From Fistulifera solaris (Eukaryota), in contig AP026179.1 of NCBI GenBank assembly GCA_030295235.1, forward strand, positions 62,001 to 126,000: a DNA stretch of 64,000 nt. Direction: 5' to 3'. The position numbers and the translations under genes are program-made. Every line of letters starts with the position of its first letter. Position 1 is the first letter of the stretch. This document shows positions 31,781-57,447 of the stretch, one piece after another. The notes under the pieces were generated by a model that saw only the letters and a program-made list of their open reading frames with translations, was not told where the DNA came from and searched no databases.

Positions 31781-31954
31781 TATTCGTATTGGTTGTTGTT
31801 GTTCAATCCGTTGCCGACTTTAATTATATAATTTCAATGAAGATCTCTCACGGAAGATGTTGTCGTTCGAGAAAAAAAAGTGAAATCAAAACGATACACC
31901 AATCGATTGGATTTTTTCCTTCATTTTTTGGGGGGTTTTTCGGAATGCGTTCGG

Positions 31955-32063
31955 AAGATTCATCACACGTGCTGATGAACGACGATTCACATGGAATTGA
32001 CTGTACCTTGTACTTTGTATTATTTATCAGGATAAGCTAAAAGTAAAATGAACCGAAGATTCA
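31955..32063 (-). promoter_or_regulatory. Two candidate PSR (Myb-like phosphate starvation regulator) sites, TGAATCTT
   Basis: AAGATTCA at 31955-31962 and 32056-32063, upstream of the 5'-nucleotidase. Both match the YGAATCTH motif reported for Phaeodactylum PSR. Confidence 0.5.
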
Positions 32064-32302
32064 TTCGTCTCGCTAGATTCCTCTTCCTTCATTATTATTT
32101 TTCGTTCATTCGTTTTACTTTGTATCGTATAAAATCGAGTCGCGATCGTGATTGAAAAAGCGACTGGATGTTTTTTATGGATCTACAAGTAGATACAGAC
32201 CGAATAATCCTATACAACCTGTCAAGTGATTGATACGGTAGCGCTCAAATACCATATTTTAAAATGATAATAGCTAACTTCATTGACTATAACACCTTTG
32301 TT

Positions 32303-34544
32303 CTATGCTACGGTTCTCTTCAAGGAGCTCAACGAGGCACGAACGGCCTCTGAAAAGCCCGATGGACGGAAGTCACCCCTGACGTCCAACAATGTATCGT
32401 CTGCTCGCAAGTCCCTATCAATGGACGCGCCGATTTTGCTGATCACTTCTCGATCATTTGTCATACTTTCATTTGAACTTAACGATGCAGTGTCATCGGA
32501 GTCCGTCAGTCGGTCACTGACCATTGTTGTTGTTTCATCCTGATAATGATTTGGTGTACCGTACTTGAACGGGTCACTCAAAGGCCCACCACCCAGAAGC
32601 TTTCGTAGCATATTTCCTCGTTTCCCTTTCCCCAATTCCTTGTGGAACCATGCAATGCGTTCGTCCAGCTTATTGTGTCCGAGTTGCTTTCGATTTTGGG
32701 CTTCTTCGATAGTGATGGCAGAAGCATCTATGAAACGATCTGTAGCAGCTTCCCAAGACAATTGTTTTTCCCATTCCGGTGTCAACGCCAAAGGTTCATT
32801 GTTTTGTGCCCAATGTAAATTTGCAACAAATTCAAATTCATTGCGGTATCCCAAACAGTTCGGAAAATTCAAAAAGAAATTGTTGGAGGGATGAATCGGG
32901 ATAATAACAAACTTGCCCATGGCCAGTGCTTCGGCGGTAGTTGTACACAAAACCTCCGAAACGGATGGGTTCACAAATGTTTTGTATCGTTTCAATGTCA
33001 GGTGATCGACTCGACCGGGAAATCGACACGGTATGGGCTCGCGTACTTTTTGCGTCATGTTTTCTTGAGACAACAAAATGTTTTCTCGGAACACTGATAG
33101 TAAAGTAGACGCTTTACTCGCGCTTGAAGTTTTGGAAGTGGAGATACTAGAGTCACTTGCCGCCCCGCTTTTACAAGATGCAGTTTCGGTGTTGTCGGCA
33201 CCACATGTTGCGTTATGTTGGATGATGTCGACTGTTTTCCCTATAATGCTACCATTGATATTGTTGTTGTTAGTCTGTCGATGCTCTTTTCGGTTTCTAG
33301 AGCCAGTTTGAAATGCTTTCTGAATCATCTGTTGTTCAGGTCCTTTGCCATAAATATCAATGGGGAAATATTCTCCGGTCAATGCTTTGTGATAGTCTTC
33401 CAACCTGAGTAAGAGATCTAAACCTTTGGCCCACATCATTTTTCCGATAAAGTAAGGCGTCGGTTCATCCTTGTCCGAAGGGCACTCGTTGGCTCGTCTT
33501 CTTCCTTCTGTCAAAAACTCAGATCGTACCCCATGTACATTGCACACAACCTCTTTTTCTGGGGCGTAGTCATGCAAGGCTGCGGACAGTTTAATGACCT
33601 TGTGACAGTAGGCGCGAACCATGGCCGATGACAACAATGAAATAGCCGGGCCCGCCCATAAACCTGATACTCCGCCATTGGTTGTTATGTACTCTTTATA
33701 ATCTGCACAATTTCGAACGAGAAAGCGGGTTTTACGTAAGAAGCAAAATGTGACAATAATACACGGGGAAGCACATGGCGTCAAAGACACTTACTTGTGT
33801 GCAACACACCAATCACAAACTTGTATTTCTGCGTCCATCCATCACCAGGAGCACGGAACCAGTTGATGTGTTCCGGTTCTTCCAGAATACAAACATCCAT
33901 ACTCAATCCCGCCCCTGAATTGTTTGCAACAAATCTCCCATGGCGAAGATACTCCCCAATCCACTGTGATAACGAGCCTCGTAAAACAGGATCCGCAAAC
34001 CGGATGCCGCATCGGGCATGCTGGCTTCGTGGCGAAGCCAGTCGCGAATAAAAGTCTCCTGCTGTTGTGGTGAAAGAAAGATTCGACCCAAGGTTTCTTT
34101 CTGATCTTCGGGTCGATCCAACCACGGAATGACCAATGTCACCCATTGCTGATCCTGACGACTGATTTTCTGGGTACGGCGATGCAAATATGCCGCTCGT
34201 AACAAGGGATTGACAGCAGTTCCAGTAAACCAAGGTAAGGCCGCTGTCGTAACAATATGAAAGTGACGATTGGGGAGATTCAAATCGGATTCGGATGTGA
34301 TGGCCTTGCGATTTGTTTCATTTGAGACGACGTTAATCTCTGCATCGACTTCCATGCTACTCCGAGCCGCTTTCTTTTCTTGTTGCAACCACAACTCGGA
34401 CATGGAAGCGACCAGGCTGGAAAATTGGGGAAGCTGGTCTTCCAAGGTGGTGGATGAGTTTTCCGAAGCCGTGAGTGCGGAAGCCTCGTCGCTTCGGCTC
34501 GATGCACCAGCTAGACTGGGCACGCTGATGATATCGTCACTCAT
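32303..34544 (-). CDS. Digalactosyldiacylglycerol synthase, copy 1 (no signal peptide)
   Basis: IVTTAALPWFTGTAVNPLLRAAYL, LEEPEH, HTNYKEY, CHKVIKLS, NVHGVR and CTTTAEALAMGK motifs. Intron 33703-33794; frameshift near 33910. Confidence 0.92.
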
Positions 34545-34686
34545 GGTTTAATCTCAATCTCACACAGAGGAGTGAGGTCTAGTGCGATAGGAGTCTTTTT
34601 ATTCTTGTTCTTTTGATTTCGTCAAATTCGAAAATGCTCACAAAAAGATTCCAACGGCCGTTGGGAGGAGAAAATCGAAATGCCGA

Positions 34687-34700
34687 TGATGACGTCATCA
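34687..34700. promoter_or_regulatory. Perfect CRE/bZIP palindrome TGATGACGTCATCA
   Basis: 14-bp palindrome about 145 bp upstream of the DGD copy 1 start. Confidence 0.35.
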
Positions 34701-34873
34701 GACGTAAAACAACTCATGAATGGAATGAATCAGTCACGAAATGAACCAAATATTGGAATTAGCCACAATCAAGGCCACAATCAGAAGAGAAAACATCAAT
34801 ATAGTACTAGGAAAGCCAGCTTGTTAATGCGTCTAAATAATGATTTATAATACAAACCTACGGCTTACAGGAT

Positions 34874-37774
34874 TTAGTAACATGCGGAGCAGCAGGGGCA
34901 ATCGATTTCGTTGCAATCAGCTTCTAGCTTTATGCCCCGGATACACCAACTGTCAAATATAGAGCCGGTTAGGTCATTTGAATAAAATCGAAAGTGCAGC
35001 AATTGCATATTTTCCATCCTCGCGGGAAGCGGCCCAGTCAAAATGTTTTCCTCAAGATTCAAGACTAGAAGACTCTTCAGTTTTCCGAGCCCTGCTGGTA
35101 TACGACCGGAAAAATCATTCCGATCCAACTGAAGTATTTGCAGTTGTCGCAACAATCCAATCTCATCAGGAATGGGCCCATTCATGTTGTTTTGTCCAGC
35201 GTTCAGTGTCATTAAACTATCAGAGAGAATGTACAGCTCAGGGAATAGGTTCCCCTGTAGCCCAGCCTCACGAAGCTCAAGGCCAGTCACCTGGCCACCC
35301 GAATTGCATGTTACGCCATTCCAACTGCATTCTTCCTTGTTTCCCAGCCAGGAACCAACGCCGGCACTGTAAGCCAATCCGGCCAACGCAAATTGCTGGG
35401 AAATCCTCCACGAAGGTAGGTCGGAACTGCTGCGAGAGACCCAATCAAAAGCTCTACCTGCTGCAGTATTCATGTCGTCTAAATTGACCGTCGAGCTGGT
35501 GAGAGCGTCCATGATCGCGCCCCGGACATCATCTGCCATTGGGGTAGGTTCCAGCGTAGTTGCGGCGACGGTAGGAGAAGCTGTGGGTGGCAGAGTGGCG
35601 CGGGTCGGTGCCAGAGTGTCTACCAGTGGAGCCGAAGGTTCCAATGTCGCTGTAAAAGTGGGTCCGGGGGTTGCAGCCGAGGGGCGCTCGGTCGGTGGCA
35701 CCACTGGTGCGGCGACCGGTGGAGCGGGCACGGGTGCGTTCGTGGGAATGCTTTCCTCACACAAACCACACGTAACGGGACACCATAGATATCCTTCATT
35801 GTCGGGTAAGCACATACGATCTCGTTGAGCCGGATTATTTTGCAAATAGACACAGTCTTGGCCACCGATTTCCGTGCTAATGATGAACTTTTTGTAAGGA
35901 TGATCGACGCAGTCTTCTTTCGACCAATTGAGCTGTTTCGTAGGAGATGTTGTGGGGAAGGACGTCGGGGCGACTGTGGTACTGTTTTCGTTGGAATTCA
36001 CAGCACTCGATTGTGGAGTTGATTTTCCAGCCTGCTGTGCTAAGAAGCTTCCAACTGCGACGCCCACGGAAGCAACCAAAACAAAGCACAAGAGCGCCAC
36101 TAGAATATTTATCCGTCGCGGCGTCAAAAAGGGTTTGGGTGACGGCGAGGGAGGAGGAGATGAAGTCGAGTCTTTTGTCGGAGCTTGACTAAGAGGTCCG
36201 ACATGTGGAATAATGATTTTGGTAGGGTATGGGAAAAAGTTGTCTGGCTTCGTGCTTTTCACCTCATCATTCATCTCACCTCCATCCAAAAACTCATCAA
36301 AATCATCTATGTCACTCCCGACAACATTGTCATAATTTTCAGGCGTAGTGCTCTTTGGCTCGGTCAAATGAGATGTGTCGAGCTGTTCACGAATATTGCT
36401 GTACGAATTGGCAAAAATACTGTTGTTGTTGTTGCTTCGTTCCGCGTTAGATACCGCGTCCATCTCGTTGCTGGATTGCATCCGCTCAAACTCGATCACA
36501 ACTTGCGCTTCTTCGTCTTGAAGGCCCCTACGAAACGCTTCGCTGTCGTCATCCTCACCGGAATCGTGTGAAACAAGATGACGAGTATTTGCGACCCCTG
36601 CTGGGAAGACGTCCGAATAATTGTCGTCCATTTCCGAGTACTCCAGCTGCTCATCTTGCTCATAGTCGGCGAGGTATTCTTCCGGCGGGTCTTGTCGCTG
36701 GTCAGTGACACACTCTTCGAGTGAGTACTGGTAGTGCTCTACTGAAGACTCGTTCGGCTCATCTTGTTGCTCTTCTTCTCCATACTCCTGTGGCTGCTCT
36801 TCTTGGTGCATCTCGTTTTCCAAGTACTCTTGTGGTTGTTCGTCGTGCTGCAAATGTGCATCGCCGTAAGCTTGCGTTTGCTCAAATTGTTGCAACGGCT
36901 CTTCTCGATACTGTTCCGGCTGCTCTTCTTGTTGCAGCTCCTCTCCCAGATACTCGTGTGGCTGCTCGTTGTCTTGCAGCTGCGCGCCTAGATACTGTTC
37001 CGGCTGCTCTTCTTGCTGCAACTCCGCATCCAAATACTCTTGTGGATGTTCGTTGTCTTGTGGCTGTTCTTCTTGCTGCAAATCCTCTTCCAAGTACTCT
37101 GGCGGCTGCTGCTGTTCGGTGGAGTGCTCTTCCGCCGGATCGTGTTGCGCCGGCTGCTCTTCGTACACTGGAACCTCGTTCTCTTCCAGCTGCTGTAATT
37201 GCTCCTCGACATGAGCGTACTGCGCCTCTTCTCCTTTCTGCTCTTCCTCATCCGCGTATTCTTTGTTCTCGGTCTGTAAATGAGCTGTTTCTTGCTCGTA
37301 TAATTCCGTTTGTTGCAGCTCGTCATCATACAGCTCGCGTGGCTGCTCTTTCTGCAATACACCGACCTCATACTCATCGCTGGGTTGCTCTTCTTGAGTA
37401 TCCATGCTTTCGGCTGTCTCTAGCTCATCATCGTCCGCAGGGATGACGAGAATCGAGGGCTCTTCCCGTAGAAGAGGAGCCACCGTATGGGACATCAAAA
37501 CGTCATCGTCACTCATTGGCTCGACGCCACTCGACTCCTCTGTATCATTCTCACTTTCATCATTCGTATCTTGGATGGCCAAGACATCTACGGCTATCGA
37601 TGATTCGTGTAAAATTGCGTTGGATCGAAAAGACGTTTCGTAGTCATCTTCCGAAATTTGCGACACCACGAGGGGATAATCCGGAACGAGCCCCGCTTCC
37701 GTCAAAATACCCGAAACCATCGGCGGCTCATCCTTGTCTAGCTGTTGCTGCGGATGCTGCTCTTGTAAATCCAT
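34874..37774 (-). CDS. Type II membrane receptor-like protein: acidic cytosolic domain, TM, ShKT-like domain, Pro/Thr stalk, LRR
   Basis: TM ILVALLCFVLVASVGVAVGSFL. CVDHP...C...C...WCPVTCGLC domain. ECSWNGVTC LRR cap and LxxLxLxxNxLxGxIP repeats. Confidence 0.9.
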   Translation of the reverse strand: MDLQEQHPQQQLDKDEPPMVSGILTEAGLVPDYPLVVSQISEDDYETSFRSNAILHESSIAVDVLAIQDTNDESENDTEESSGVEPMSDDDVLMSHTVAPLLREEPSILVIPADDDELETAESMDTQEEQPSDEYEVGVLQKEQPRELYDDELQQTELYEQETAHLQTENKEYADEEEQKGEEAQYAHVEEQLQQLEENEVPVYEEQPAQHDPAEEHSTEQQQPPEYLEEDLQQEEQPQDNEHPQEYLDAELQQEEQPEQYLGAQLQDNEQPHEYLGEELQQEEQPEQYREEPLQQFEQTQAYGDAHLQHDEQPQEYLENEMHQEEQPQEYGEEEQQDEPNESSVEHYQYSLEECVTDQRQDPPEEYLADYEQDEQLEYSEMDDNYSDVFPAGVANTRHLVSHDSGEDDDSEAFRRGLQDEEAQVVIEFERMQSSNEMDAVSNAERSNNNNSIFANSYSNIREQLDTSHLTEPKSTTPENYDNVVGSDIDDFDEFLDGGEMNDEVKSTKPDNFFPYPTKIIIPHVGPLSQAPTKDSTSSPPPSPSPKPFLTPRRINILVALLCFVLVASVGVAVGSFLAQQAGKSTPQSSAVNSNENSTTVAPTSFPTTSPTKQLNWSKEDCVDHPYKKFIISTEIGGQDCVYLQNNPAQRDRMCLPDNEGYLWCPVTCGLCEESIPTNAPVPAPPVAAPVVPPTERPSAATPGPTFTATLEPSAPLVDTLAPTRATLPPTASPTVAATTLEPTPMADDVRGAIMDALTSSTVNLDDMNTAAGRAFDWVSRSSSDLPSWRISQQFALAGLAYSAGVGSWLGNKEECSWNGVTCNSGGQVTGLELREAGLQGNLFPELYILSDSLMTLNAGQNNMNGPIPDEIGLLRQLQILQLDRNDFSGRIPAGLGKLKSLLVLNLEENILTGPLPARMENMQLLHFRFYSNDLTGSIFDSWCIRGIKLEADCNEIDCPCCSACY

Positions 37775-38695
37775 GTTTATATACAACAACCAATTATGAC
37801 GTTTCGAATCGCAAAACTCGCACCGTCCGGAAAGAAGGCCGTTCTTTGGCAGGTGCGTGTGGTGGGTCCGACGAGTGGTTGGCGTTTCAATGTGAAAGGC
37901 GAGTCGTATAAACCCAACAAATTTGCCTTGATTAACAATCGAGCGGATCTCCCCCATTTTTCTCTGAACGATACAAGAAAGTAGGGATGAGTAGTTAGAG
38001 TAGCGCGCACTGCACGAAAGAAGTCGATAGAGAATAGTAGGGGAGAAACTCTAAGTACAAGTGCAGAGGCGGTTATCCGGTTTTCAATTCTCGTTACTTA
38101 GAGGGCAATCGCCATTCAACTCCGTTTTTCGGCGTTCGCGGCTTTTCTCACAATAATCATCGTCTGTCAGGTGCGCCACCTCAATTCGCACTTGGTTTGG
38201 ACGGGCAACCAAACGCTATTGCGCAACACACGCTTATCATTCATTGGACATCCAACGCAATACAATTTACTAGGATGAAATTATTTTTGTCCCTAAATAC
38301 AACGTTCTATTTTTGTCGGGAAAACTTCCTAGAAGCACCTCGTCGAAGTAATTCAACGAGTATGATCGCGTCGTCTTTTCCACTTATCCGACGGCATCAA
38401 CTACTAGAGAAGGATGTTGTTTTTACGATTGAAGGTTTTTGAAATACTCGGATTTAGTTTTAAATGCTTGTGCTTCATAAAGTTCAACGGAGTACTATGA
38501 ACGCACTCCACTTCAGCTAATCCAACTCACGAAGCGTGACTGAAATTCAAACGTGGATATGGTTCGGTTATCGGAAAAAATAAAACGAAAGAATTAAACT
38601 TGTACGGTTTATCCCTTCACTTGACTATTGAGATTGCTCATACGGTTTATCCCTTCGCTTGACTATTGAAATTGTGCTACCGGATTCTCTTTCGT

Positions 38696-39855
38696 CTAAT
38701 CACACGGTAGAATTTCACAAATGTTGAAAGGGCAAGTACGACAAAAGAAGGATGAAGAGGTTGGGGCCGAAGTCGATACGATCGTCACTTCGGCTGTTGG
38801 AGGCATCGTTGATGCAAACGTCGGATGTGTGGTTGGTGGAGACGTCAGCTCGGCAGTCGGTTCCAGCGTTGGTTCTGCCGTTGGCGCTGGAGTCGGTTCT
38901 TCGGTTTCTTCGACTTCTTCTGAGGTCGGCAATAAGGTGGGAGAGATGGTAGGAACAAGGGTGGAGCGCGATTCTGTATCCACGGATGGCGTGATAGATA
39001 CAGCGATCGCGGGAGCGCTCGAGGGACGGATGGGGGTCGGAGAAATCGTCGGAGCAAAATTTTTGAGACACAGGCCACACGTGACAGGACACCAGCGGTG
39101 ACCTTCTTCTACCGACAGACACATTCGAGCTCGTTGATCCAAATTGCTTCGCAAGAACATGCAGCCCTGTTCACCGTATTGGTCATTGATTTTGAATTTT
39201 TTGTACGGATGATCGACACAATCTCCGTCTCTCCAATTGAAGGAGCCAGTTGGAGGTGCAGTCGGAGACTTTCCCGGAGCGCCTGTATTGAGCTGCTCCG
39301 TATCTGGAATTGATGGATCGATATCAATATCTGTATCCGCATCGGCATCAACTTGAATTTGAGACGGTGATTCATTCCTTTTTGCACCAAGAAGCTGCCC
39401 AACGCCACCGCTATCGAACCCACAAAGATAGTACACAGAACAACCATGATAATTTTCAGTCGTCGTGGCGTCAGAATCGGATCCTTATTCAAATCCTTCA
39501 TGTCTGCATCACTGGAGAAGAGGGTATTTGGGCGAAACGTAGACGCATCATCATGATTTCCATCACTTTCTTCGTCATCGACACCATACACTTCGTCGTA
39601 CGTTTCGGGCGTGCTAGTAGTCTTATCTTTCACTTCATCAGCGGAAATAGTCTCGTCTGCTACGGAGATGGCATCGTTTTGCGTGTTGAGCGGCAACACC
39701 CCAAACTCTCTCATCACACGCCCCTGTTCGGCCTGTACGGCCCTTCGAAAGGCTTCATCATCGTCTTCGGGCTCTAACGTGTTGTGAACCACGGAAGAGT
39801 CTCCTGACTCGGTGTAAATGCCCGAGAGGACAGATTCATCGTCGTGAGGATACAT
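38696..39855 (-). CDS. Type II membrane ShKT-like/mucin-stalk protein, paralogue 2
   Basis: ORFs 39109-39855 and 38696-39436 join by restoring one A near 39380. Ends FFCRTCPFNICEILPCD. Confidence 0.8.
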
Positions 39856-40498
39856 CTTTTACGATTTGTTGCAAGAAAAAGAATATCCTCGGAAGGATGA
39901 GCCGATCTTATCTCATTACACCGCGTACTACGTTTTGTGAAAAGGGATTGCAGGTGAACTTCGAATTTTGCACAAAGCAATTGGACGAATTCGTGGCAGG
40001 TCACGCCTCTCGCTATGCAAAATCCCTGAACGGGTTACTTGTTTCCGTTGCGCTCTGCCATTTAGTACTAAGTGATATCGAACAATTCCAGCACGCATGA
40101 AAAGAGCACGCGACAATAAGTAGATGTATGACTCCAAGATGTGCTAAAAGAATGATAGAGGGAAAGAAACTGGAAACAGCCCGCCATCATCCATCATTTC
40201 ATTCATTCCGTTCTCCGTTCACTCCGCCTATTTTGGGTGCGCGCACAGCTACGAGACCCGAGTTAGTCGTCGAGGGTTCACGAGGAGTCATTAATGGGTT
40301 GTGTTTGCGACCTGTCTTTTCTTTCTGAAGTAATTTTTTCTGACTAAAATAAGAACTAGTGTAAATTATATTATTTAATTTATGTGACCGCAATGAAACA
40401 GCCCTTTGTATTAAGTTCTAATCTTCCGCACGTAAACAGTTCATAATATTGTCTGAGATGCTGTTGCTCAATATAGTTGTGCTTCATTTTGTTCCTTC

Positions 40499-41823
40499 TT
40501 AGCAGGGAATCAATTCACAAATCAACAGTGGACACGTTCGGCAAAGAAAGGATGCTGGACGCGATGGCGCCGGTGTCGGTTCGGGTGTGAACACCAGCTC
40601 GGTTGGTTGCGGTGTCACCACCACAAACGAAATCGTTGGATAGGGCGTAGGATCTTCCGTACGTGGTGGTCGCGTGGGATCAGGAATTTGTACGGGCGGT
40701 GGTGTTGGTTCTGGCGTCGGTTCGGGAGTGTCCTCGGCCGTCGGCTCGGGCGTGCGTCGCTGTACGGGGCTCCGTGTGGGTCGTGGCGTCGGTTTCGGTG
40801 TCGGCTTTCGTGTCGGTTTCGGGGTCGATCGAGGCACCGGTGGCTTTGTTGGAGCAGTAACAGGAGCAGGGGTTGGATTACGTGTCGGTGTGAGTGTGGG
40901 GCGAGGTGTGCTTGGAATTGCTTCCGCAGTAGTTGCTGCCATCGAAGGAGCCAGCGAGGGCAGCCACACAGGCACCGAAGATGGACGCACCGAAGGCTCT
41001 AGCGACGACTCCTCGTCAATAGGACACAAACCACAAGTCGCTGGGCACCATCGATATCCGGCATTCTCGGGCAAACACAAGCGCTCACGGTGTACGGGAT
41101 GATTTTGCAAAAGAAACAATTTTGTTCCCTGAAGCGGTCGTTGATTTGAAATTGTTGTGAAGGATGATCCTGACAATTTTCGGGTGTCCACTGGTACGAC
41201 TCTGTAGGCGAAGGTGTCGGAGAAAGGGTGGCAAAAGCGTCAAGATCCTGGACATTGTTGGGCACAAGAGATGAGTCATCATCTCGCTGTTGTGCCAAAA
41301 AGCTTCCCATCGCCACGGAGATGGAAGCCACCACAATCGTACACAGAAGTGCTACGACTATTTTCAGTCTTCGTGGTGTAAGAATAGGATCGGTCGGCGC
41401 ATGTTGTTTCGAAGGAGAAGCAGGAAAGAGTGTGTTGGGTGGAAGAATCGTGGACCCTTCATCGTCGATGACAAAACTGCTCTCATCGTAAGTTTCCGGC
41501 GTGCGATTCTTTTGTATTTGAATCGATTCGTGTACACTTGGTTGTTGTGGTAGCATGTAGGATTCGTTATCATAAATCGTACTAACGTCGGCGAAACTTT
41601 CATCGGCTAAAGAAATAGCATCTTGATGATGCGGAGGCGTGACACCGAATTCGCGCTGGACACGAATCTGCTCTGCTTCTAAGGCACGACGAAACTCTTC
41701 ATCATCGTCATCGACAGCAGCAGCAGCAGGAGGAGGAGGAGGATAATCACCTGATTCCGTATAAATGCCCGATAAAATCGATACGTCATCGAGTTCTTGA
41801 TAACGACGTAACGTTGTATCCAT
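40499..41823 (-). CDS. Type II membrane ShKT-like/mucin-stalk protein, paralogue 3
   Basis: ORFs 40999-41823 and 40499-41191 join by restoring one T near 41110. Ends FLCRTCPLLICELIPC. Confidence 0.8.
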
Positions 41824-42279
41824 GATTGTAAGAATATAGCCAAACAGACCCGCGAAAGAATCAAGATGTCTTTCTTGAAATAGGCAATGAATAAAGCTTC
41901 TCTTGGTTTGAAGAACAGTGAATAGTACTCCCTGTTACAAGTATGAGGAGGAAGATGCAGAATGATGAATTCGTGTGGACGACGAAAAGGGGAGGTTTTC
42001 GAATCCGGGGACCTGGGACTGCGAGATGCGTGGTGGCTTCCGGATCATGAGGTTCCGGATGAGATTTGGGGAACCCTCCGATCCGTTGACGATATATGTA
42101 AATAGAGTATTGAATATCTATGTACAATAAGACAAAACAAGATAAACCACAACGTTTTGGTTACTTAAAGGAAGAACGGAGGGTCAGCTCGAATTTTCGT
42201 CCAATGAGCTATGTAGCTGAAAGAGTACGCCCTCATTTTTTCGAACCCCCGATGACATCATCATCAAGGCTCAACTTCA

Positions 42280-43722
42280 TCAAGGCATTATTATTGTTTG
42301 TGCCGATTTCTTGGCCAAGGAACAAATTCCACACGTCTTTGGACAACTCTTGGCAGCAAACTCGCCCTTACATGCGGTAGCCTGGTAAGATTGATTGTTC
42401 GCCAACCAGGCACACGTCTCATAGCCAATCTCGTAATTGATGAAAATAGCGGCACCCGGATCGTCTTGACATACAGCATTGCAACGACCACACACACGAG
42501 GGCAATGTTTGTAACCATCCTTTCCGGCTGCACACAATTCCTGTTGCAATGCGGCTTTCATCGATAACCATTTGCAACTTTGGTAGCCATAAGCGTCGTT
42601 TATGAAAAAGAAGGCCGATTTGTCGTCGACACAATACGCCCGTAAAGGGCTCACATCACCACCACAGACTCCACACGACAAGGCACATTCGTCAGCAATT
42701 CCGAATTCTTCATCAAAACACAGAAAATCATGTAAATACGGAAAATTGAGCAGAATGTCACAATCACCCGTGTCTTGACACTCCGTGGGCGGTTGTGTTG
42801 GAACTCGATGATACGGTATCGGTGCAATCAAAACGGGTTGAAAGTCTGTCGGAGCACGCGTGCGAGGCCGGGTGATCGTGGGTAAATCCACCGGAATGGG
42901 CTCGAGCCCCACCGAAGGAGCACGTGTCGTCGTAGGATTCATAGTAGGAGATTGCGTTTCTTCCGGGATTCTTCGCATGGTAGGTGATGCTGTCGAGAGA
43001 ATGGGCGCAGATGTTGTGGCGAGTGGTGATGCAGAGGGAGCTTGAGTGCGAACGGGGACCGGAGCGGGGATTGAAACGGGAATAGCAGTAGGTGTGGTAG
43101 GTCCATCTGGTAGACCAATAGATATAGGCATAAGAGGAGCGGTTGGAGCTCGAGTAGTCGTAGGATTCATGGTAGGAGATTTTGTTTCTTCTGGGAGATT
43201 TCTTGCCGTTGGTGATACTGTAGAGAGGATGGGTGATGATGTTGGAGAAATAGTAGGCACGGACTCGATTCTCGTAGGCGGTCTTGTGGAACCCACGGGC
43301 GATGAAACGGGAGAAGGGGAAATAGGAGAAGGTAAGCTGCTGGGAATCATCGTGGCGCTGGAAGGCGCGGACGAGACGTCGATTTCCGACGGTGGCCCAA
43401 TATTACTACCACGAGGTGGATCGCTTCTGCCTTCAATTGTTAAATAACTGGCAAGAGCAATCACCGATGCCAGAACGACTATCAAAGCCAGTCCTATGAC
43501 AAGTATACGGAATGCTCGATGATGTCTCCCTCGGTTTGGGCGGTGGTGCATTCTATGCGTTTGTTGTTGTTTGGAGGGAGGCGGTGGAGGCAACGAGCCA
43601 TGCCCTCCACTGGTAAAACTGTCTCGTAGTTGTTGCCGTAATACTTCCACTTCGGAAGCTTCGACTGGATTATCATCATTTGGCTCAAATGAGTTGTCGT
43701 CTAACATTCTTTCTTCGGACAT
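42280..43722 (-). CDS. Type II membrane protein with a Pro/Thr stalk and three ShKT-like domains
   Basis: TM ILVIGLALIVVLASVIALASYL, duplicated stalk, and three six-Cys modules ending CALSCGVC, CPRVCGRC and CPKTCGIC. Confidence 0.85.
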   Translation of the reverse strand: MSEERMLDDNSFEPNDDNPVEASEVEVLRQQLRDSFTSGGHGSLPPPPPSKQQQTHRMHHRPNRGRHHRAFRILVIGLALIVVLASVIALASYLTIEGRSDPPRGSNIGPPSEIDVSSAPSSATMIPSSLPSPISPSPVSSPVGSTRPPTRIESVPTISPTSSPILSTVSPTARNLPEETKSPTMNPTTTRAPTAPLMPISIGLPDGPTTPTAIPVSIPAPVPVRTQAPSASPLATTSAPILSTASPTMRRIPEETQSPTMNPTTTRAPSVGLEPIPVDLPTITRPRTRAPTDFQPVLIAPIPYHRVPTQPPTECQDTGDCDILLNFPYLHDFLCFDEEFGIADECALSCGVCGGDVSPLRAYCVDDKSAFFFINDAYGYQSCKWLSMKAALQQELCAAGKDGYKHCPRVCGRCNAVCQDDPGAAIFINYEIGYETCAWLANNQSYQATACKGEFAAKSCPKTCGICSLAKKSAQTIIMP

Positions 43723-44353
43723 GATCGCTACTAGATCTTCCCCCAACTTATTCAATCGCGTTGAGTCGTAATCAAGCGTTCTGTTTCGCGATTTGAGACG
43801 GCCCTTGCAGCTGAAGTAGTTCTCGCAAAAAAGCTTTCTGGAGAATAGGTGACGTGGGGCTCAAGTCTTCATGAATGCTAGCTCCGCATAATGTTTTGAC
43901 GCTTGTCAAGAGCGATTGGGTGATGTCGAAAGAAACTTTCGCTTCTGTTGGACGTTACTTTGCCAGTAACAAGGTCTCCCTCTCATGGATGATCAAAATA
44001 TCATATATGGTTTAAATAGAGAGTAAATGATTCCCGCTATGCGGAGTTGATTCTTTATTACGTAAGCGCAATGTTTCAAAGCTTGGTTTTCTTATAGAGG
44101 CTTTGCTGTTGTTACATTTCTCCATCCAATGGGCACGTTTCGGTTTTGGCGCGAAGGGGTGAAGCACGAGTATCCGTCACAGTTCAACGTAAAACTCTTC
44201 GACACAGGGGCAGTAAATAGTAGAGACAATCGAGTCGTGTGTCGTGCGTCGCGCTTCGCTCGCCACATCTGTCCGTACGGTACTCGTCCTCCACCGCGCC
44301 ATTTTGGTCACAAAAATCGCGCTTTCTCTTTGTTTCTTTCTTCTTTTTTTTTT

Positions 44354-45885
44354 TTAACACGGGAGCAATTCGCAGATATTCAATATACATACACGACAGA
44401 GAAACGGAGGAGGTTCTTCGCCACCACCATCATCATTATCGTCGTCGTCGTCGTCGTCGTCGCCATCATCAACTGGTGGAGGGGTAGCTTCCGTGGGAGA
44501 TGGGACGGGAGCGCTGGTCGCCACTGGTACGGGAACTGGTGGTGGGTTTACTACGGGAACAGGAGCTGCAACAGGTCTTGGCGTTGGTGGAGGCACCGGA
44601 CGTGGGGTAGGATCCGCTACCGGCTTTTCGACGACAGGCCGCCGCGTAGGGTCGGGAACTGGTCTCGGCGTTGGTCGAGGGACGGGCGCAACTGGTCTCG
44701 GTGTCGGTGCAGGCACGGGTCTTTCCACAACAGGGCGTCGGGTAGGGTCGGTAGCTGGCCTTGGCCTTGGCGTTGGCGGAGTGACGGGCGCAACGGGTTG
44801 TTGCGTTGGATTTGGCACGGGCCTCTCGACAACGGGGCGTCGGGTAGGGTCGGCGACCGGTCTTTCCATCACTGGTCGTCTCGTTGGATCAGCAACAGGT
44901 ATTTCCGCAACGGGTCGTCGAGTTGGGTCTGCGACAGGGCGTCGAGTGGGATCCGCCACCGGTCGTTCAAGGACAGGTTGTCGGGTTGGCAAAGCAGCAG
45001 GTGTCTCTTCAAGACGTTCCGAAGGAGCTGTGGATGGAACATCAGAAGGAGAATCCGATGAAGAAGTGACTTCCTCACACACACCGCAAGTCGCAGGGCA
45101 CCACCGGTAACCATCGTTCTCGGGCAAGCACATGCGATCACGATGAGTCAAATTGCTTTGTAAAAGATGCAGTTTTGTTCACCAACTTCCTCATTGATAT
45201 TGAAGATTTTATAGGGATGATCTGTGCAGTTACCATCCGTCCATTCAATCGATTTTGTCGGTGAAGCCGTTGGAGGAGATGTGATAATGGTGCCGAGATC
45301 GGGAAATTCTGCACCAGATTGCGATGGCATCTCATCCTCTTGCGCCAGAAAGCTTCCCACGGCAACAGCGACGGCAGTCACCAAAATGATAGACAAAATC
45401 AAAATTACAATACCCAGTCGTCCCGGAGTCAGCCTTTCTCGGTAAGTTCCTGCCGGTGCTTTCGCGTCTTCTTCTTCTTCAGGAGAACCGAAGAGGGCGT
45501 TTGGCCGGAAACTATTCGACTCGTCGTCATTCTCACCGTATACGTTCTCGTAAGTTTCGGGTGTGCTGCTGGTCTTATGATTGGAGGCAGATTTGTCGAG
45601 CTGCTGCTGGATGCCATTGTAAGATTCGGCAAAGATACTATCACCACCCAAGCTTTCATCCGCAATCGAAATAACATCATCTTGCTTCAACTCGATATTT
45701 GCCGGTACAATAATACCAAATTCTCTCATAACTCTCGCTCGTTCCGCTTGAAGCTCTCGACGGAACTCTTCTTCGTCCTCGTCGACGCCCTGGAACACGG
45801 CAGGGGTGGTATCATTCTGCAGATTGTTGCCGGAGTCCGTGTAAACAGCGGATATGAGTGAATCTTCATCCTTCTTACGCTCCAT
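44354..45885 (-). CDS. Type II membrane ShKT-like/mucin-stalk protein, paralogue 5
   Basis: ORFs 45148-45894 and 44354-45151 join by restoring one T near 45163. PVADPTRRP repeats; ends FLCRVCILNICELLPC. Confidence 0.8.
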
Positions 45886-46883
45886 ATTTACCAAAACAAC
45901 ATTAATAACAATAATGAAATCAGTTTTTGTTACACCTCCCTTTTTTCAGCAAGGGCTGAGACTAAGAATTCTTTTGTTGGAAGAGAACAGTTCAATGGCT
46001 TGATTTTCGCTAAGATAGAAAGAACATCGCTGTTCGCCTTGTTTGTGGGTCTCATGGCGTAATAAAGCGCGACAAAAATGAGGAGAGAAGTCCGCCCTCC
46101 CTACTCTCACATCGTATTTCCAGTGATACAGTGGGCAAAAGGTGCTTCCAACGGAAACTAAAACAAGTCATGTTCCAACAGTTAAAACCTAACTAAACAA
46201 CCAACGGAGAAATGCAATTATTGGACTATTAGATAGGGGCAATGGTCTAATCCTAATCCTACTGGTACATAGCTCAATGCTTCTATTTATTGGTCACCTC
46301 TGTCCTATGTGACACGTGACAATTCTCTCTTTATGCCTCAGTTCTCCAGTTTCATGTAGCTGAAAGTGTTGCCAAAGAACGTTCACGAGATTTCATACAG
46401 TCAGTTGAGATTGGGCTCGACAGAACTGATACTACGTAATTCGCAATTCCGATTTATGTTGCACACTACCAGGTATTGTGTGCCATACTTTGTAGACATT
46501 CGCCTTTTGCTTATTGGGGTCTTCGTCCGGTACTCAGAACTAGAATGAACGTTGATCCACTCTTATGAATTCAATATCTATACGACATACGACTCCTAAA
46601 ATTAGGTATCCTGAACATCCTGATTCAGGTACCGGCCAAACGAGGAACGGAAAAGAATTTTTCTTTGCGCTGCTTCGCTGCTGTTGCAGTTTGTTCCAAA
46701 AGAGCTGTCAAGAACTCTTTCTCAGGTTCCGGTTGAGCAAATGCCAGAGCATCTTTCCCAACTTTTCCGGCGGAGTATTAAAACAATTCCTTCATTTGAA
46801 TCTTTTGACTATCTACTGGGCTGTTCCTTTGAATCAGCAACTCGAAACTGACAGCAGCATTGCTCTGAAAACGTGTAACCACA

Positions 46884-49235
46884 ATGGAGCAAAGATGGCG
46901 AAACGCGCGTTCTATAGCCATTTTATTTTGTTTCTGGTTAATGGTTGCTTCAAATGATGCCAGTTTGGGTAAACGAATAGCGCATTTGGTTCCTTCGCGA
47001 GGAGGTGCGTTATCGAATACAACAGAGCAGCAGGATGAAACAGAATCAATGTGTCAAGAGGAAAACATCATGTTTCCGTTAACAAATCATAGCCATAGAA
47101 AGTCACTGGATGTAACGACGAGCGATACAACAAACTTAAAACAATCTACTGAAGATGAAAGCAACGAAATGGTTTGTACGGATAGTCCGCTCACGAGCGC
47201 GCGGACCCTGGAACGAAAAAGGTTACAATTTTTTGATCGCATGGCATGGGTTTCCGAGATGTGGATGAGAAAAGAACACGATGCATCCCTGCATTCTTCC
47301 AATACAAATGTCACTGCGATTACACCGGAATCCGATCTGCGTTTACCGGACCGTCATTTCCATATCGTTACCACCGCCGCATTGCCTTGGTTTACCGGTA
47401 CGGCTGTCAACCCGACTTTGCGAGCCGCCTATCTACATCGAAAGGCGCAAGAAATCAACAATAGTACAGATCAGTGGGTCACTTTGGTTGTACCATGGCT
47501 CGAATTACCGCAAGACCAGAAGCAGTTGTATGGTGAAATATTTTCTACGCAGCAGGAACAAGAAGAGTTTATTCGTTCTTGGCTCAGTGACAAAGCAGGC
47601 ATGCCGGATGTAGCTGATCCAGAGACAGGTTTACGGATTCTATTCTATCCAGCTCGTTATCACAGTGGCTTATGCTCTATTTTTGCGATGGGGGACCTAC
47701 TTCACATGATTGAAGAGAAAGGTGGCCCTATGGATGTTTGCATTCTGGAAGAACCCGAACATGTTAACTGGTTTCGTGCTCCAGGAGACGGATGGACGAT
47801 GAAATACAAGTTCGTCGTCGGAATAGTTCATACCAGTAAGTCTTGGTAGCCATTCGACCCGATACATGTTTCATGGGAATATTTCTCACCACCGTTTCTG
47901 ACTATATTGTCACGTCGAGCAGATTATAAAGAATACGCGAGCTCTCATTATTCAGGGCTGTGGACAGCTCCTGCGATATCGATGGTTTCGTCGGCTATGA
48001 TCCGGGCATACTGTCATAAAGTTATCAAATTGTCACCCGTGCTACAGAGTTATGCCCCAGAGAAAGAAGTTGTTTCAAATGTCCACGGCGTCCGATCAGA
48101 ATTTATCGATGAAGGTCTCCGACGAGCATCCACGTACCATCCAAGAGAAACTGAGAGTAGTTACTCGCCCACACAGAAAACAGATGCATACTTTGTGGGA
48201 AAGCTTCTTTGGGCCAAGGGTTTGGACATCATGCTAGACCTGCAGGATTATTACAAACAGCGCACAGGGAAATATTTTTCTATCGATATTTATGGCAGTG
48301 GCCCCGAACAGGAAGCGATACGTCGCGCTTTTCATGGTCGCCCACGTCGAGCCGAGGAAGGAGAATCCAATAGCTCTAATGCCAGTCGTAAGCGCCCAAG
48401 GAGTATTCTACAAACTACTTTGGCACTTTTCGGCGGTAATAGTCCGAGTCAGATGAAGGAAGATGAGACGAAGGCTGGGGCAGATACGACGCCGACATCT
48501 CTATTCCCTATGGAAATCGACTTTTCATCTTTTGAAACTTTTAGCGAAAAAGCGAAAGAGCACTTTGCGAAGCTGAGGCAAGAGTTACCTCAAACATTTG
48601 CAGAACTGCGAAGACAGGCTGTACCAGCTGAATTTCGAGGTCGAGTTGATCATGCTGAATTGAAAGATTACAAAGTTTTTGTAAATCCTTCCGTCTCCGA
48701 GGTTCTTTGCACTACCACTGCTGAAGCTCTGGCCATGGGAAAATTTGTCATCATTCCAGTTCATCCATCCAATCAGTTCTTTTTGAAATTTCCAAATTGC
48801 TTGGCATACCGAGACAAGTTTGAATTTGTGGCCAATCTACGATGGGCTCTCAATCACGAGCCAGAACCCCTCACACCTGAGTTGGCACAGCAATTTACAT
48901 GGGAAGCCGCGACCGAGCGTTTTATGGATGCTGCTGCTATTACCGAAGGCGAAGCTCGCGAGCGAGAGCGATCGGGACGGTCGAAAATGGACGAGCGCAT
49001 TGCATGGTTCCACAATGAACTGGGTAAAGGTGCAACAGGAGATATGCTACGCAAGATTTGTGGAGCGGGCCCCGTCAGTCATCAAGCTAAATACTTGCAG
49101 AAGCAATTGATGGAAGGGGAGAGTGACGAGGGAGAAGAAGATGAAGATGATGGGTTGAGTGCAAAGTTCCGCCGATCATCTTTCGCCGAGGCGCTTCGAG
49201 CCACTGTGGGAGACTTGTCTTTGTTTATGCAATGA
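46884..49235 (+). CDS. Digalactosyldiacylglycerol synthase, copy 2 (with signal peptide)
   Basis: Same DGD motifs as copy 1. Intron 47836-47922 sits at the identical HT-N/YKEY position. N-terminal hydrophobic SIAILFCFWLMVAS followed by RGG. Confidence 0.93.
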
Positions 49236-50372: not shown

Positions 50373-50653
50373 CTTGGATGATTCGGGGCGCAAAGCGAAT
50401 GGTGTGTTATTTGTCTGGAGTGTGCTCTTTCACTTATTGAGATTTGTGAAGATAACTTGCAGCGACATATATAAGTTGCTGAAGTTCTTTTATTACAAAT
50501 GGCAAATACCAGTTCTTGTTCTCCAGTAGGATGATGAATTGTAACGCTTCTTGCTGGTCACTTGTCAGTGGCCAAAAACGAGACGCCATCATCGCGAGAC
50601 CCCTTTGCAGTTCGCGATCTTTTCACGACCTTTTCTTTGCGTCAGCGAAAAGT

Positions 50654-50867
50654 AGTGAAGATGAATGGGCAATCTCGTTCAAGTATACGTGACTGACTGA
50701 TACACGAGTTAGTAGAAAAGTGCGACGTCATCGGAATGACTTGTTGCGATGCAACACCAATCGTAGATAATCTTTAATGTGTTAGGATTGACTTTGTTAT
50801 TCGAAGTTGTATCGTTGTTTGCGGATATTGTTGTGATATTCGCTTGAGAATCTCGTTTATTATCGCT
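50654..50867 (+). repeat. 5' LTR (AGTGA...TCGCT)
   Basis: Identical to 57234-57447 by direct comparison. Confidence 0.97.
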
Positions 50868-50880
50868 GGTTATGAGCCCA
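50868..50880 (+). other. Primer-binding site GGTTATGAGCCCA (tRNA-iMet half-molecule type)
   Basis: Directly after the 5' LTR. Resembles the Drosophila copia PBS GGTTATGGGCCCA, which pairs with the initiator-tRNA anticodon arm. Confidence 0.8.
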
Positions 50881-51067
50881 GATTCACGGCGCGATTGCTG
50901 GATCTGTTTTGATAGACGAGATATTGAATGCCAACACGGCGAACAAGAAGTGCTGACCCACCACGAGCTCGGCAACAAGAGGAAATACCTGCTTTGAGAG
51001 AAGAAGTGGGTGAAGAGGAAAAGGAAGAAGTCTTTGAAGAGCGAATTGTCGCTCTTTTGAAGACGTA

Positions 51068-51385
51068 AACGAATCGAACGAATTGGAACCTGAACAGTTG
51101 GAACTGTTGACCAAACCGACTGGAACTGACAACATGGCCGATCAGTTTGATTATTTGAGCAATCATTTGGATGGAGAAGCGCCTCCGGCGACAGTTCTAA
51201 GCGTCGCTGAGCAGTTAGAAGGGAATAACGAATTGAACGAATTGGAACCTGAACAGTTGGAACTGTTGACCGAACCGACTGGAACTGACAACATGGCCGA
51301 TCAGTTTGATTATTTGAGCAATCATTTGGATGGAGAAGCGCCTCCGGCGACAGTTCTAAGCGTCGCTGAGCAGTTAGAAGGGAAT
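51068..51385 (+). repeat. 159-bp tandem duplication spanning the probable gag start
   Basis: Two near-identical copies (51068-51226 and 51227-51385), each containing MADQFDYLSNHLDG. Confidence 0.9.
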
Positions 51386-57139: not shown

Positions 57140-57233
57140 TTCGATCCTATGACATATCAAGAGAGAGATTACATGTTTAGAGAACTTAGGATTTTAGGAA
57201 TTTGTGAGAGAATGAACTTCGATTGAGAGGGAG

Positions 57234-57447
57234 AGTGAAGATGAATGGGCAATCTCGTTCAAGTATACGTGACTGACTGATACACGAGTTAGTAGAAAAG
57301 TGCGACGTCATCGGAATGACTTGTTGCGATGCAACACCAATCGTAGATAATCTTTAATGTGTTAGGATTGACTTTGTTATTCGAAGTTGTATCGTTGTTT
57401 GCGGATATTGTTGTGATATTCGCTTGAGAATCTCGTTTATTATCGCT
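57234..57447 (+). repeat. 3' LTR
   Basis: Preceded by polypurine tract GAGAGGGAG and followed by TSD AAAGT. Confidence 0.97.

What the first reader, a model, noticed from the sequence alone, without database searches (positions are those of the whole stretch)
34874..45885. Tandem array of five type II membrane receptor-like genes with a conserved cytosolic module and variable ectodomains
Seen: five co-oriented genes, each with an acidic N-terminus and one TM helix, followed by ShKT-like six-Cys domain(s) and a Pro/Thr stalk. Four share ordered N-terminal motifs: S(G/A)(I/V)(Y/L)T(E/D)(S/A)G, (E/A)FRRxxQ/ExExxxVxxEF, D(A/V)(I/V)SxA(D/E), TPE(T/N)Y(D/E) and LTP(R/G)R just before the TM. The same four share the ectodomain WxxxxCxDHP...F.I...Q.C..L..N...R.R.CL...GxxWCPxTCGxC. 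The distal tips differ: an LRR domain, a 4-Cys peptide, or three ShKT domains. Inference: a diversifying cell-surface sensor or adhesin family with a shared kinase-less cytosolic signalling or trafficking tail (Tyr motifs, TP phosphosites). I do not recognise this as a described family.
Basis: partly seen in the sequence, partly recalled or inferred. Interest (0 to 1): 0.8.

Follow-up and report, generated by a model that had tools for sequence, protein, structure and literature searches.

The report
Kinase-less diatom surface protein array
Five neighbouring diatom genes encode membrane-anchored surface proteins with no enzyme part; four carry a short inner segment that is also kept in related proteins of other diatoms, which points to a shared, still unknown partner inside the cell, but the genes are conserved rather than rapidly diversifying.

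Summary
The array is real. Five intronless minus-strand genes (g1-g5) lie at the stated coordinates in a Fistulifera solaris genome. The frame breaks in g2, g3 and g5 are homopolymer assembly errors: short-read contigs carry the missing base. All five are single-pass proteins, most likely N-terminus inside. The six-Cys ectodomain models confidently (pLDDT 91) and matches only ShK-fold structures, weakly. g1 shares its architecture (tail, TM, ShKT-like domain, Pro/Thr stalk, LRR) with a Phaeodactylum tricornutum protein and unnamed environmental proteins. g2, g3 and g5 are local duplicates with a 4-Cys tip in place of the LRR; g4 is a distant, tail-less relative. 'Diversifying' is not supported: dN/dS between the two subgenome copies is 0.06-0.20, and the tips are unchanged in 52 of 52 codons. 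Best reading: kinase-less cell-surface recognition or adhesion proteins that dock a common cytosolic partner through the helix. Ligand, partner and location are untested. I found no description of this family in the papers searched.

The parts
34874..37774 (-). g1: 966-aa single-pass protein with the full (probably ancestral) architecture: cytosolic tail, TM, ShKT-like domain, Pro/Thr stalk, LRR head
   Evidence: open frame; exact match in protein collection; 29% identity over 488 columns to P. tricornutum P0178, E 6e-45
37694..37717 (-). g1 cytosolic motif 1 (aa 20-27)
   Evidence: seen in translation; kept in P0016 and P0017
36620..37594 (-). g1-specific Glu/Gln-rich low-complexity insert (aa 61-385) with 42-nt repeats
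   Evidence: E 0.24, Q 0.16; tandem repeats at 36887-37132; dN/dS 0.15
36488..36544 (-). g1 cytosolic motif 2 (helix, aa 411-429)
   Evidence: profile score 53.8; alignment A2
36041..36112 (-). g1 transmembrane helix (aa 555-578)
   Evidence: hydropathy 2.84, 3 K/R before and 1 after
35759..35911 (-). g1 six-Cys ShKT-like domain with inserted beta-hairpin (aa 622-672)
   Evidence: AF2 pLDDT 91; only ShK-fold chains at Z>=2
34877..35530 (-). g1 LRR head with N- and C-terminal Cys caps (aa 749-966), of a type common in this genome
   Evidence: Pfam LRR_1 above cut-off, LRR_14 E 1.3e-5; 132 matches at E<=1e-5 among 150 scored candidates
38696..39855 (-). g2 (FisN_26Lh106, 386 aa): motif 1 39802-39825, motif 2 39703-39759, TM 39385-39459, ShKT-like 39068-39220, stalk, 4-Cys tip 38702-38743; assembly indel in the run at 39379-39383
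40499..41823 (-). g3 (FisN_26Lh105, 441 aa): motif 2 41647-41703, TM 41296-41367, ShKT-like 41024-41175, stalk, 4-Cys tip 40502-40543; assembly indel in the run at 41109-41112
42280..43722 (-). g4 (480 aa): short tail without the motifs, TM 43441-43509, long stalk, three Cys domains (42664-42780 short type; 42481-42633 and 42322-42471 long type)
   Evidence: the other-subgenome copy is labelled 'ShKT domain-containing protein' by UniRef
44354..45885 (-). g5 (about 510 aa): motif 2 45718-45774, TM 45346-45417, ShKT-like 45077-45228, Pro/Arg/Val-rich repeat stalk, acidic tract, 4-Cys tip 44357-44398; assembly indel in the run at 45162-45165
   Evidence: intact relative P0022, 514 aa
26976..28346 (+). 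diphthamide-synthesis gene, a synteny marker: its homologue lies tail-to-tail with family member P0077 in locus L039
   Evidence: Pfam PF01866 E 3e-104; 62% identity in L039

Best explanation
A small tandem expansion of a kinase-less, type II single-pass cell-surface protein family of pennate diatoms. SHOWN (computationally): one TM helix with conserved small residues; a disulfide-type ShK-fold domain next to the membrane; a Pro/Thr-rich stalk; an LRR head in g1 or a 15-residue 4-Cys tip in g2, g3 and g5; a disordered acidic tail with two motifs conserved in distant relatives; purifying selection throughout. g1 is the counterpart of a gene found in P. tricornutum and in unnamed environmental diatom-like contigs; g2, g3 and g5 arose from the same lineage by local duplication. 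INFERRED: the proteins sit in the plasma membrane with the N-terminus inside; the glycosylated stalk lifts the LRR or tip into the extracellular matrix, where it binds a surface, matrix or partner-cell ligand; the TM small-residue face lets the proteins pair with each other or with a co-receptor; the conserved helix (motif 2) together with the acidic Ser/Thr motif 1 folds on binding and recruits one common cytosolic partner (kinase, adaptor or cytoskeletal linker). The LRR-less copies would feed other inputs into, or compete for, that same partner.
For: Topology: more K/R before than after the TM in 7 of 8 core proteins, 0-1 Cys before versus 10-14 after, no N-terminal hydrophobic signal stretch. 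Fold: pLDDT 91, pTM 0.74; 4 of 48,161 chains reach Z>=2 and all 4 are ShK-fold (6dri Z 3.1, rmsd 2.4, 38 aligned; 2mcr 2.9; 2k72 2.6; 2lg4 2.0); the top Foldseek row is also ShK-like (2md0, E 3.7). Motif 2 is the only ordered cytosolic element in the g2-type model (helix 29-50, pLDDT 73-77). A matrix built from core proteins only finds it at the shuffle floor (p 0.003) in 10 of 17 wider proteins (9 of 16 clusters) and motif 1 at p<=0.023 in 9 of 17, while 0 of 5 generic diatom TM-LRR controls have motif 2 (p 0.055-0.64). In alignment A3 (16 rows) the helix keeps Phe 14, Val/Leu 16 at +4, Glu 14 at +7, Lys/Arg 14 at +10 and Tyr/Phe 15 at +15, and TM small residues are 16, 16, 15 and 15 of 16. 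Tree: g1, g2, g3, g5 and four unnamed relatives form one clade, UFBoot 99. Synteny with a diphthamide gene in L039; single gene at the locus in L037. Purifying selection. Three RNA-like runs cover g1, g2 and partly g3. Kinase-less TM-LRR proteins are proposed receptors or adhesion molecules in pennate diatoms (PMC6261938; 10.1101/2024.04.15.589526).
Against: No localisation, ligand or partner data exist. Topology rests on hydropathy, charge and Cys distribution, not on a dedicated predictor; N-glycosylation sequons occur on both sides and do not help. The ShK-fold Z-scores are below the tool's trust level, and Pfam ShK stays under its cut-off. The helix is not significantly amphipathic in any of 16 rows (p 0.13-0.86). 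The wider proteins were retrieved with a profile that contained the motifs, so their motif frequency is biased upward; 7 of 17 lack motif 2, and one control scored p 0.04 for motif 1. The runs are only guessed to be RNA, come from one study, and g5 is almost uncovered in X2-X4. Deep tree nodes are unresolved, and g1 nests among the tip-bearing proteins (84), so the order of LRR loss is not shown.
Confidence: 0.55

Rival explanations
1. Wall or matrix integrity sensors that work like yeast Wsc/Mid sensors: a Cys-rich domain and a stiff glycosylated stalk anchored in the wall or matrix act as a spring, and strain is passed to a GTPase regulator bound to the tail.
For: Same parts list as recalled for Wsc1 (Cys-rich domain, Ser/Thr/Pro stalk, one TM, enzyme-free tail); stalk P+T 0.37-0.47; strong purifying selection fits a housekeeping role.
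Against: Wsc/Mid sensors are type I with a distal Cys-rich head (recalled); here the Cys domain is next to the membrane in g1, g2, g3 and g5 and the fold is ShK-like; no Pfam WSC match.
Confidence: 0.15
2. Transmembrane links of the gliding or adhesion machinery: the tail helix docks on a myosin or actin adaptor under the raphe and the ectodomain grips secreted adhesive strands.
For: The gliding model requires transmembrane components between adhesive strands and actin-myosin (figure legend, PMC11962607). The only named members are from two pennate genera. Long acidic tails plus mucin-like stalks suit such a link (inference).
Against: No named member from other motile genera turned up among the 30 sequences looked up; no similarity of the tail to any solved structure; no localisation data.
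Confidence: 0.1
3. Endomembrane residents (Golgi, endosome or silica deposition vesicle): luminal ShKT-like domain and stalk organise glycans or matrix proteins, and the tail motifs are sorting signals.
For: Type II topology is typical of Golgi proteins (recalled); a Tyr-x-x-hydrophobic pattern follows motif 4 in g1, g2 and g5; the same Cys domain also decorates a subtilisin-like protease and sulfatase-type proteins.
Against: The Tyr pattern is missing in g3 and outside the close family; tails of 130-550 aa are far longer than sorting tails; an LRR head on a long stalk is more typical of surface proteins.
Confidence: 0.13
4. Membrane-tethered ion-channel modulators: the ShK-fold domain binds a potassium or other channel in the same membrane, as described for the ShK-like domain of MMP23.
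For: Fold matches include the MMP23 domain (2k72, Z 2.6) and nematode ShK-like peptides; the domain sits close to the membrane; g4 domain 2 has a Lys six residues before the fourth Cys.
Against: That Lys (channel-blocking dyad position, recalled) is absent in g1, g2, g3 and g5; a beta-hairpin is inserted; the domain is widespread on enzymes and repeat proteins; a shared fold shows no function.
Confidence: 0.05
5. A fast-diversifying recognition array.
For: Three kinds of tip; stalks differ freely between paralogues; some LRR receptor-like genes are under positive selection in Pseudo-nitzschia (PMC5485032).
Against: Every pooled region has dN/dS at or below 0.20 with upper bounds at or below 0.24; tips are identical in 52 of 52 codons at dS 0.41; gene number and order are the same in both subgenomes.
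Confidence: 0.05

Closest known systems
Pennate-diatom kinase-less TM-LRR proteins MRM2 and MRP2 (PMC6261938; 10.1101/2024.04.15.589526)
   Same: One TM, plant-specific-type LRR outside, N-terminal intracellular part without a kinase (g1 only).
   Different: The MRM2 intracellular part is about 50 aa; g1 has 554 aa with conserved motifs. No ShKT-like domain is mentioned for MRM2 in the passages read. g2-g5 have no LRR. No mating-type data here.
P. tricornutum XP_002180675.1 / UniRef100_B7G0G8 (P0178), uncharacterised, labelled as an LRR N-terminal plant-type domain protein
   Same: Whole g1 architecture including motifs 1 and 2, TM signature, one ShKT-like domain, stalk and LRR.
   Different: No Glu/Gln insert; motifs 3-5 not recognisable; no tip-bearing paralogue was found for it; its function is not described in the papers searched.
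ShKT / ShK-like domain (Pfam PF01549; PDB 6dri, 2mcr, 2k72, 2lg4, 2md0)
   Same: Six Cys with the terminal C-x3-C-x2-C pattern and the same helical core.
   Different: About 51 residues with an inserted beta-hairpin instead of about 36-40; below the Pfam cut-off; dyad Lys absent in g1, g2, g3 and g5.
Plant LRR receptor-like proteins (LRR-RLPs)
   Same: Kinase-less LRR surface proteins with small-residue motifs in the TM, thought to work through partners (analogy drawn; TM motif role recalled).
   Different: RLPs are type I with a short C-terminal tail (recalled); these are type II with long N-terminal tails, a mucin-like stalk and an ShK-fold domain.
MMP23 (recalled: type II membrane protease with an ShK-like domain)
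   Same: Type II anchor plus ShK-fold domain.
   Different: No protease or any catalytic domain in g1-g5.

Membership tests
ShKT / ShK-like domain | Six cysteines ending in C-x3-C-x2-C | tested here: met
   spacing 18-13-9-3-2 (g4 also 5-13-10-3-2 and 18-13-8-3-2)
ShKT / ShK-like domain | ShK fold | tested here: inconclusive
   All 4 chains with Z>=2 are ShK-fold, but best Z is 3.1 (rmsd 2.4, 38 aligned) and Foldseek E is 3.7; consistent yet below the tools' trust levels
ShKT / ShK-like domain | Pfam PF01549 gathering score (20.9 bits) | tested here: not met
   g4 15.3 bits; P0107 20.6 bits; no hit for g1, g2, g3, g5
ShK-type channel blockers | Lys-aromatic dyad before the fourth Cys (position recalled) | tested here: not met
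   No Lys between Cys3 and Cys4 in g1, g2, g3, g5; a Lys at that place only in g4 domain 2, not directly followed by an aromatic
ShK-type channel blockers | Channel binding or block | not testable with these tools
   needs electrophysiology
Diatom kinase-less TM-LRR receptor-like proteins (broad class) | One TM, extracellular plant-specific-type LRR, no kinase | tested here: met
   g1 only: LRR_1 above cut-off, one TM, no kinase family; repeat pattern as read by eye. g2-g5 have no LRR
MRM2 family | Short (about 50 aa) intracellular N-terminus | tested here: not met
   554 aa in g1, 132-156 aa in g2, g3, g5, 71 aa in g4
MRM2 family | Falls in the MRM2 LRR clade or matches its HMM | not tested
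MRM2 family | Mating-type-biased expression | not testable with these tools
   no suitable runs
LRR receptor-like kinases | Cytosolic kinase domain | tested here: not met
   no kinase family in Pfam scans of the genes or 18 relatives; tail modelled as disordered apart from one helix
Type II single-pass membrane proteins | No signal peptide, one internal TM, positive charge on the N-terminal side, Cys-rich C-terminal side | tested here: met
   (hydropathy, charge and Cys counts; no dedicated predictor available)
Wsc/Mid wall sensors | WSC domain and type I topology (recalled) | tested here: not met
   no WSC match; type II features

The most novel reading that the evidence does not exclude
Motif 2 plus motif 1 form a docking module, conserved across pennate diatoms, for the missing intracellular partner of kinase-less surface proteins, and in the boldest reading for the myosin or actin adaptor of the gliding machinery. 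Fistulifera then reuses one cytosolic output with three interchangeable extracellular tips, one of them a new 15-residue 4-Cys binding knob.
Probability: 0.15. Interest if true: 0.85.

Novelty: new variant of a known kind. Interest (0 to 1): 0.47.

Why it matters
Diatom TM-LRR proteins are proposed receptors and adhesion molecules, yet they lack kinases or any known signalling part, so how they act inside the cell is open. This family offers a short conserved cytosolic handle and a counterpart in P. tricornutum, a species with established transgenic tools (own knowledge), so a pull-down with wild-type versus mutant helix could name the partner directly. It also defines a hairpin-extended ShK-fold domain that is common in diatom-like proteins and missed by Pfam. 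The interest is tempered because tandem LRR-type expansions are ordinary in benthic diatoms and no function is shown.

Tried and rejected
Pseudogene or programmed-frameshift reading of g2, g3, g5: rejected; the base is present in short-read contigs, all 7 listed one-base insertions sit in 4-5-base runs including 4 intergenic ones, and the second subgenome copy is broken at partly different places. Positive selection: rejected. Amphipathic character of motif 2: not significant in 16 of 16 rows. Self-association of motif 2: complex prediction gave no verdict (score 0.03, alignment not used), not counted either way. Pfam gave nothing above cut-off for the tails, tips or Cys domains. PDB sequence searches: no match at E<=10 for the tip or for motifs 1-2, and only a chance Mss4 match for g4. 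ESM Atlas: the Cys domain's best cluster is unnamed and mostly Bacillariophyta (0.91), an ShK cluster only at 0.75; no usable hit for the motif region. First metagenome scan: 0 of 437 stretches confirmed; second: 7 of 418, of which L042 and L043 are generic TM-LRR genes. Word-index searches with A2 and A3 were crowded by Pro/Thr and LRR proteins, and lengths 666-797 aa were not covered by the two core-family searches. Other copies of the tail or tip elsewhere in the genome: none among 11 and 4 scored candidates, and the tip search missed g5 itself, so it is insensitive. No listed run is on record as RNA; lack of cover over g5 and g4 in X2-X4 is not evidence of silence. Earlier-findings look-ups by sequence (2) and by words (1) returned nothing. 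Two of 26 rows of alignment A4 were out-of-frame references and aligned as near-empty rows. FFAT, beta-TrCP-type and YxxPhi readings of the motifs (recalled consensus, by eye) do not hold across the wider family.

Full report
OBSERVATION. The five genes lie on the minus strand between 34874 and 45885, without introns in their reading frames: g1 34874-37774 (966 aa), g2 38696-39855, g3 40499-41823, g4 42280-43722 (480 aa) and g5 44354-45885. Protein look-ups name the organism as the diatom Fistulifera solaris: g2 is FisN_26Lh106 (P0009) and g3 is FisN_26Lh105 (P0008). In 6 of 6 pairs among these four, 0 of 300 shuffles reach the alignment score of the tails (z 9.9-32.7) or Cys domains (z 34.6-43.7). 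g4 matches through its Cys domains (z 17.5-20.2) but hardly through its tail (z 1.7-3.0).

FRAME BREAKS. g2, g3 and g5 each change frame once, in a run of 4-5 identical bases. Contigs of four public runs laid on 33500-47500 insert one base at 39378 (X1, X2, X3), 41108 (X1, X2) and 45161 (X1). Four more such insertions lie between genes, and all 7 listed sit in homopolymer runs (3 further indel rows were not shown). These are long-read assembly errors. X1 covers all 30 bins evenly, like DNA. X2-X4 cover 20-25 bins, with long pieces over g1 and g2, over g3 mainly in X2 and X3, and little between genes, like RNA, but the tool only guesses RNA, all four runs are one study, and depth cannot rank genes. 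Transcription of g1-g3 is therefore likely, not shown.

SECOND COPY AND SELECTION. Contig C42 holds the same five genes in the same order at about 83% nucleotide identity, with an 18-kb insertion between g1 and g2. That fits the two subgenomes of this species (allodiploidy recalled; gene names carry L and H). Nei-Gojobori estimates between the copies give dN/dS 0.09 (95% 0.06-0.13) for 644 tail codons, 0.07 for TM, 0.06 (0.04-0.10) for 384 Cys-domain codons, 0.20 (0.15-0.24) for 911 stalk codons and 0.07 for the g1 LRR. There is no amino-acid change in 52 tip codons at dS 0.41. Eleven neighbouring coding segments pool to 0.16. The array is conserved; the diversifying reading is not supported at this depth.

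TOPOLOGY. In 8 core proteins, Lys+Arg within 12 residues is higher before than after the TM in 7; Cys number is 0-1 before and 10-14 after; the first 30 residues hold no signal-like stretch (best 11-mer 0.35-0.95, g1 1.5). Sequons are uninformative. This favours N-in, C-out; no dedicated predictor was available. TM small residues are kept in 16, 16, 15 and 15 of 16 rows of alignment A3, a helix-packing face by inference; a generic control protein shows a similar Gly-rich TM, so this is not unique to the family.

ECTODOMAIN. Pfam sees only the g1 LRR and a sub-threshold ShK match in g4. With a 26-row alignment (2 rows were out-of-frame and nearly empty), the g1 domain models at pLDDT 91 as a beta-hairpin plus three short helices. 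Of 48,161 chains, 4 reach Z>=2 and all are ShK-fold (6dri 3.1, 2mcr 2.9, 2k72 2.6, 2lg4 2.0); Foldseek ranks another ShK-like peptide first at E 3.7. The scores are low, as expected for such small targets, so the fold is probable rather than proven. The domain is a mobile module: 74 of 165 stored proteins are listed, nearly all for one or more copies at 15 bits or above, and it also sits on a subtilisin-like protease elsewhere in this genome. The channel-blocking Lys (position recalled) is missing in g1, g2, g3 and g5. The LRR head is of a type with 132 matches in this genome. The 4-Cys tip was seen only in the close family and has no PDB sequence match.

RELATIVES. The close family comprises both subgenome sets, a second near-identical set from JGI/NCBI records, and four unnamed proteins P0002, P0003, P0004 and P0007. 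A profile search of 1.84 billion representatives gave 683 hits at E<=0.001, of which 150 were listed; 6 match along the whole profile. From these I took the 14 further proteins with an internal TM and a Cys domain, 2 weaker ones, and the named member of one cluster, P. tricornutum XP_002180675.1 (P0178): 17 in all. P0178 aligns with g1 from TM to C-terminus at 29% identity (E 6e-45). Matrices built from core proteins only find motif 2 at the shuffle floor in 10 of 17 (9 of 16 clusters) and motif 1 at p<=0.023 in 9 of 17. Five generic diatom TM-LRR proteins lack motif 2 (p 0.055-0.64); one scores p 0.04 for motif 1. The retrieval profile contained the motifs, so these rates are biased upward, but the column pattern is clear: Phe, then Val/Leu at +4, Glu at +7, Lys/Arg at +10, Ile/Val at +11 and Tyr/Phe at +15. 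AlphaFold makes it the only ordered tail element, though it is not significantly amphipathic. P0077 and P0151 appear to carry the motif pair twice. Motifs 3-5 align only in the close family. A 111-column tree of 33 proteins groups g1, g2, g3, g5 and the four unnamed proteins at UFBoot 99, leaves g4 outside, and resolves little else; the g1 motif-2 block fell under the score threshold and was left out. In locus L039, P0077 lies tail-to-tail with a diphthamide-synthesis gene, as g1 does at 6.5 kb in this window; in L037 the family gene stands alone. So g1 probably marks the ancestral locus and g2, g3 and g5 are local additions. Of 30 sequences looked up, organism names came only from Fistulifera and Phaeodactylum, so the taxonomic range is open.

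MECHANISM. Shown: anatomy, probable fold, conservation and constraint. Inferred: plasma-membrane location, glycosylated stalk, ligand binding by LRR or tip, TM pairing, and a fold-on-binding docking role for motifs 1 and 2 that ties all four proteins to one cytosolic partner. I put this at 0.55. Rivals are a wall-integrity sensor (0.15), an endomembrane scaffold (0.13), a gliding link (0.10), a tethered channel modulator (0.05) and a diversifying recognition array (0.05).

WHAT IS KNOWN. Kinase-less TM-LRR proteins MRP2 and MRM2 are proposed pheromone receptors or adhesion molecules (PMC6261938, passages). MRM2 has an intracellular part of about 50 aa with no known signalling function (10.1101/2024.04.15.589526, passages and section 20); LRR genes are expressed in sequence during mating (10.64898/2026.03.25.714157, passages). 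Tandem LRR expansions are common in Seminavis (PMC7335047, passages), some LRR genes are positively selected in Pseudo-nitzschia (PMC5485032, passages), and secreted LRR proteins abound in Nitzschia putrida (PMC9054022, passages). The gliding model invokes transmembrane components (PMC11962607, passages). None of these passages mentions an ShK-type domain ('ShK' occurred 0 times in the 5 texts searched for it). Ten library searches (listings only unless named above) found no description of this family; the accession search and 'diatom + ShK domain' returned 0 papers. The 2015 survey of P. tricornutum LRR proteins by Schulze et al. was seen only as a citation and may list B7G0G8; bioRxiv supplements and most subscription papers could not be seen.

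VERDICT. A real, well-conserved array. g1 belongs to the broad class of diatom kinase-less TM-LRR proteins but not, on tail length, to MRM2. The ShKT-like domain, the conserved tail motifs and the LRR-less 4-Cys variants make it a new variant of a known kind. Interest 0.47.

Noticed in passing
window 32303-34547 (-) and 46869-49235 (+): Two paralogous family-1 glycosyltransferase genes (DGDG-synthase-like by recall; Pfam Glycos_transf_1) flank the array in inverted orientation, 66-72% identical to each other's C42 copies; dN/dS differs (0.27 versus 0.04-0.14).
   Followed up: partly
G000:C42:163350-181430 (L010-L012): An 18-kb insertion between g1 and g2 in the other subgenome holds a very large gene in many pieces, with RTX calcium-binding nonapeptide repeats (PF00353); it is absent from the window.
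   Followed up: partly
window 28533-32304: A 5'-nucleotidase gene with a C-terminal hydrophobic tail (29517-31819, -; PF02872) is present here but has no counterpart at the syntenic place on C42.
   Followed up: partly
window 50622-57453: A retrotransposon-like element in broken frames (retroviral SH3-like domain; integrase- and RNase H-like pieces by eye), absent from the C42 copy.
   Followed up: partly
P0178 aa 271-278 and equivalents in P0077, P0080, P0091, P0151, P0025, P0130; g1 about aa 517-526: A third short motif (two Pro followed by a hydrophobic strand) precedes the TM in the wider family. It resembles the recalled calcineurin docking consensus; it is weak in g1 and altered in g2, g3, g5. 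Whether this diatom has calcineurin was not checked.
   Followed up: no
P0130, P0090, P0071: A sister group with TM, two Cys domains and usually an LRR lacks motif 2 and instead repeats a short acidic His-Thr motif resembling motif 1.
   Followed up: partly
G000:C32:669540-670346 and C33:681750-681899 (L030-L032): A subtilisin-like protease carries two copies of the same ShKT-like domain.
   Followed up: partly
window 3787-4668 (+): A protein with a signal-like N-terminus and about a dozen near-identical acidic 19-aa repeats; only a sub-threshold DUF5507 match.
   Followed up: no
window 61557-62420 (+): A protein made of two copies of a Cys/Trp-containing domain, 96% identical between subgenomes, with no Pfam match.
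   Followed up: no
window 13619-15271 (-): A metalloprotease-like frame with a His-Glu-x-x-His zinc motif (by eye) and no Pfam match at E<=0.01.
   Followed up: no
P0017: The JGI label 'topoisomerase-4 subunit A' on this g1 orthologue is a misannotation; the protein has the g1 architecture throughout.
   Followed up: yes
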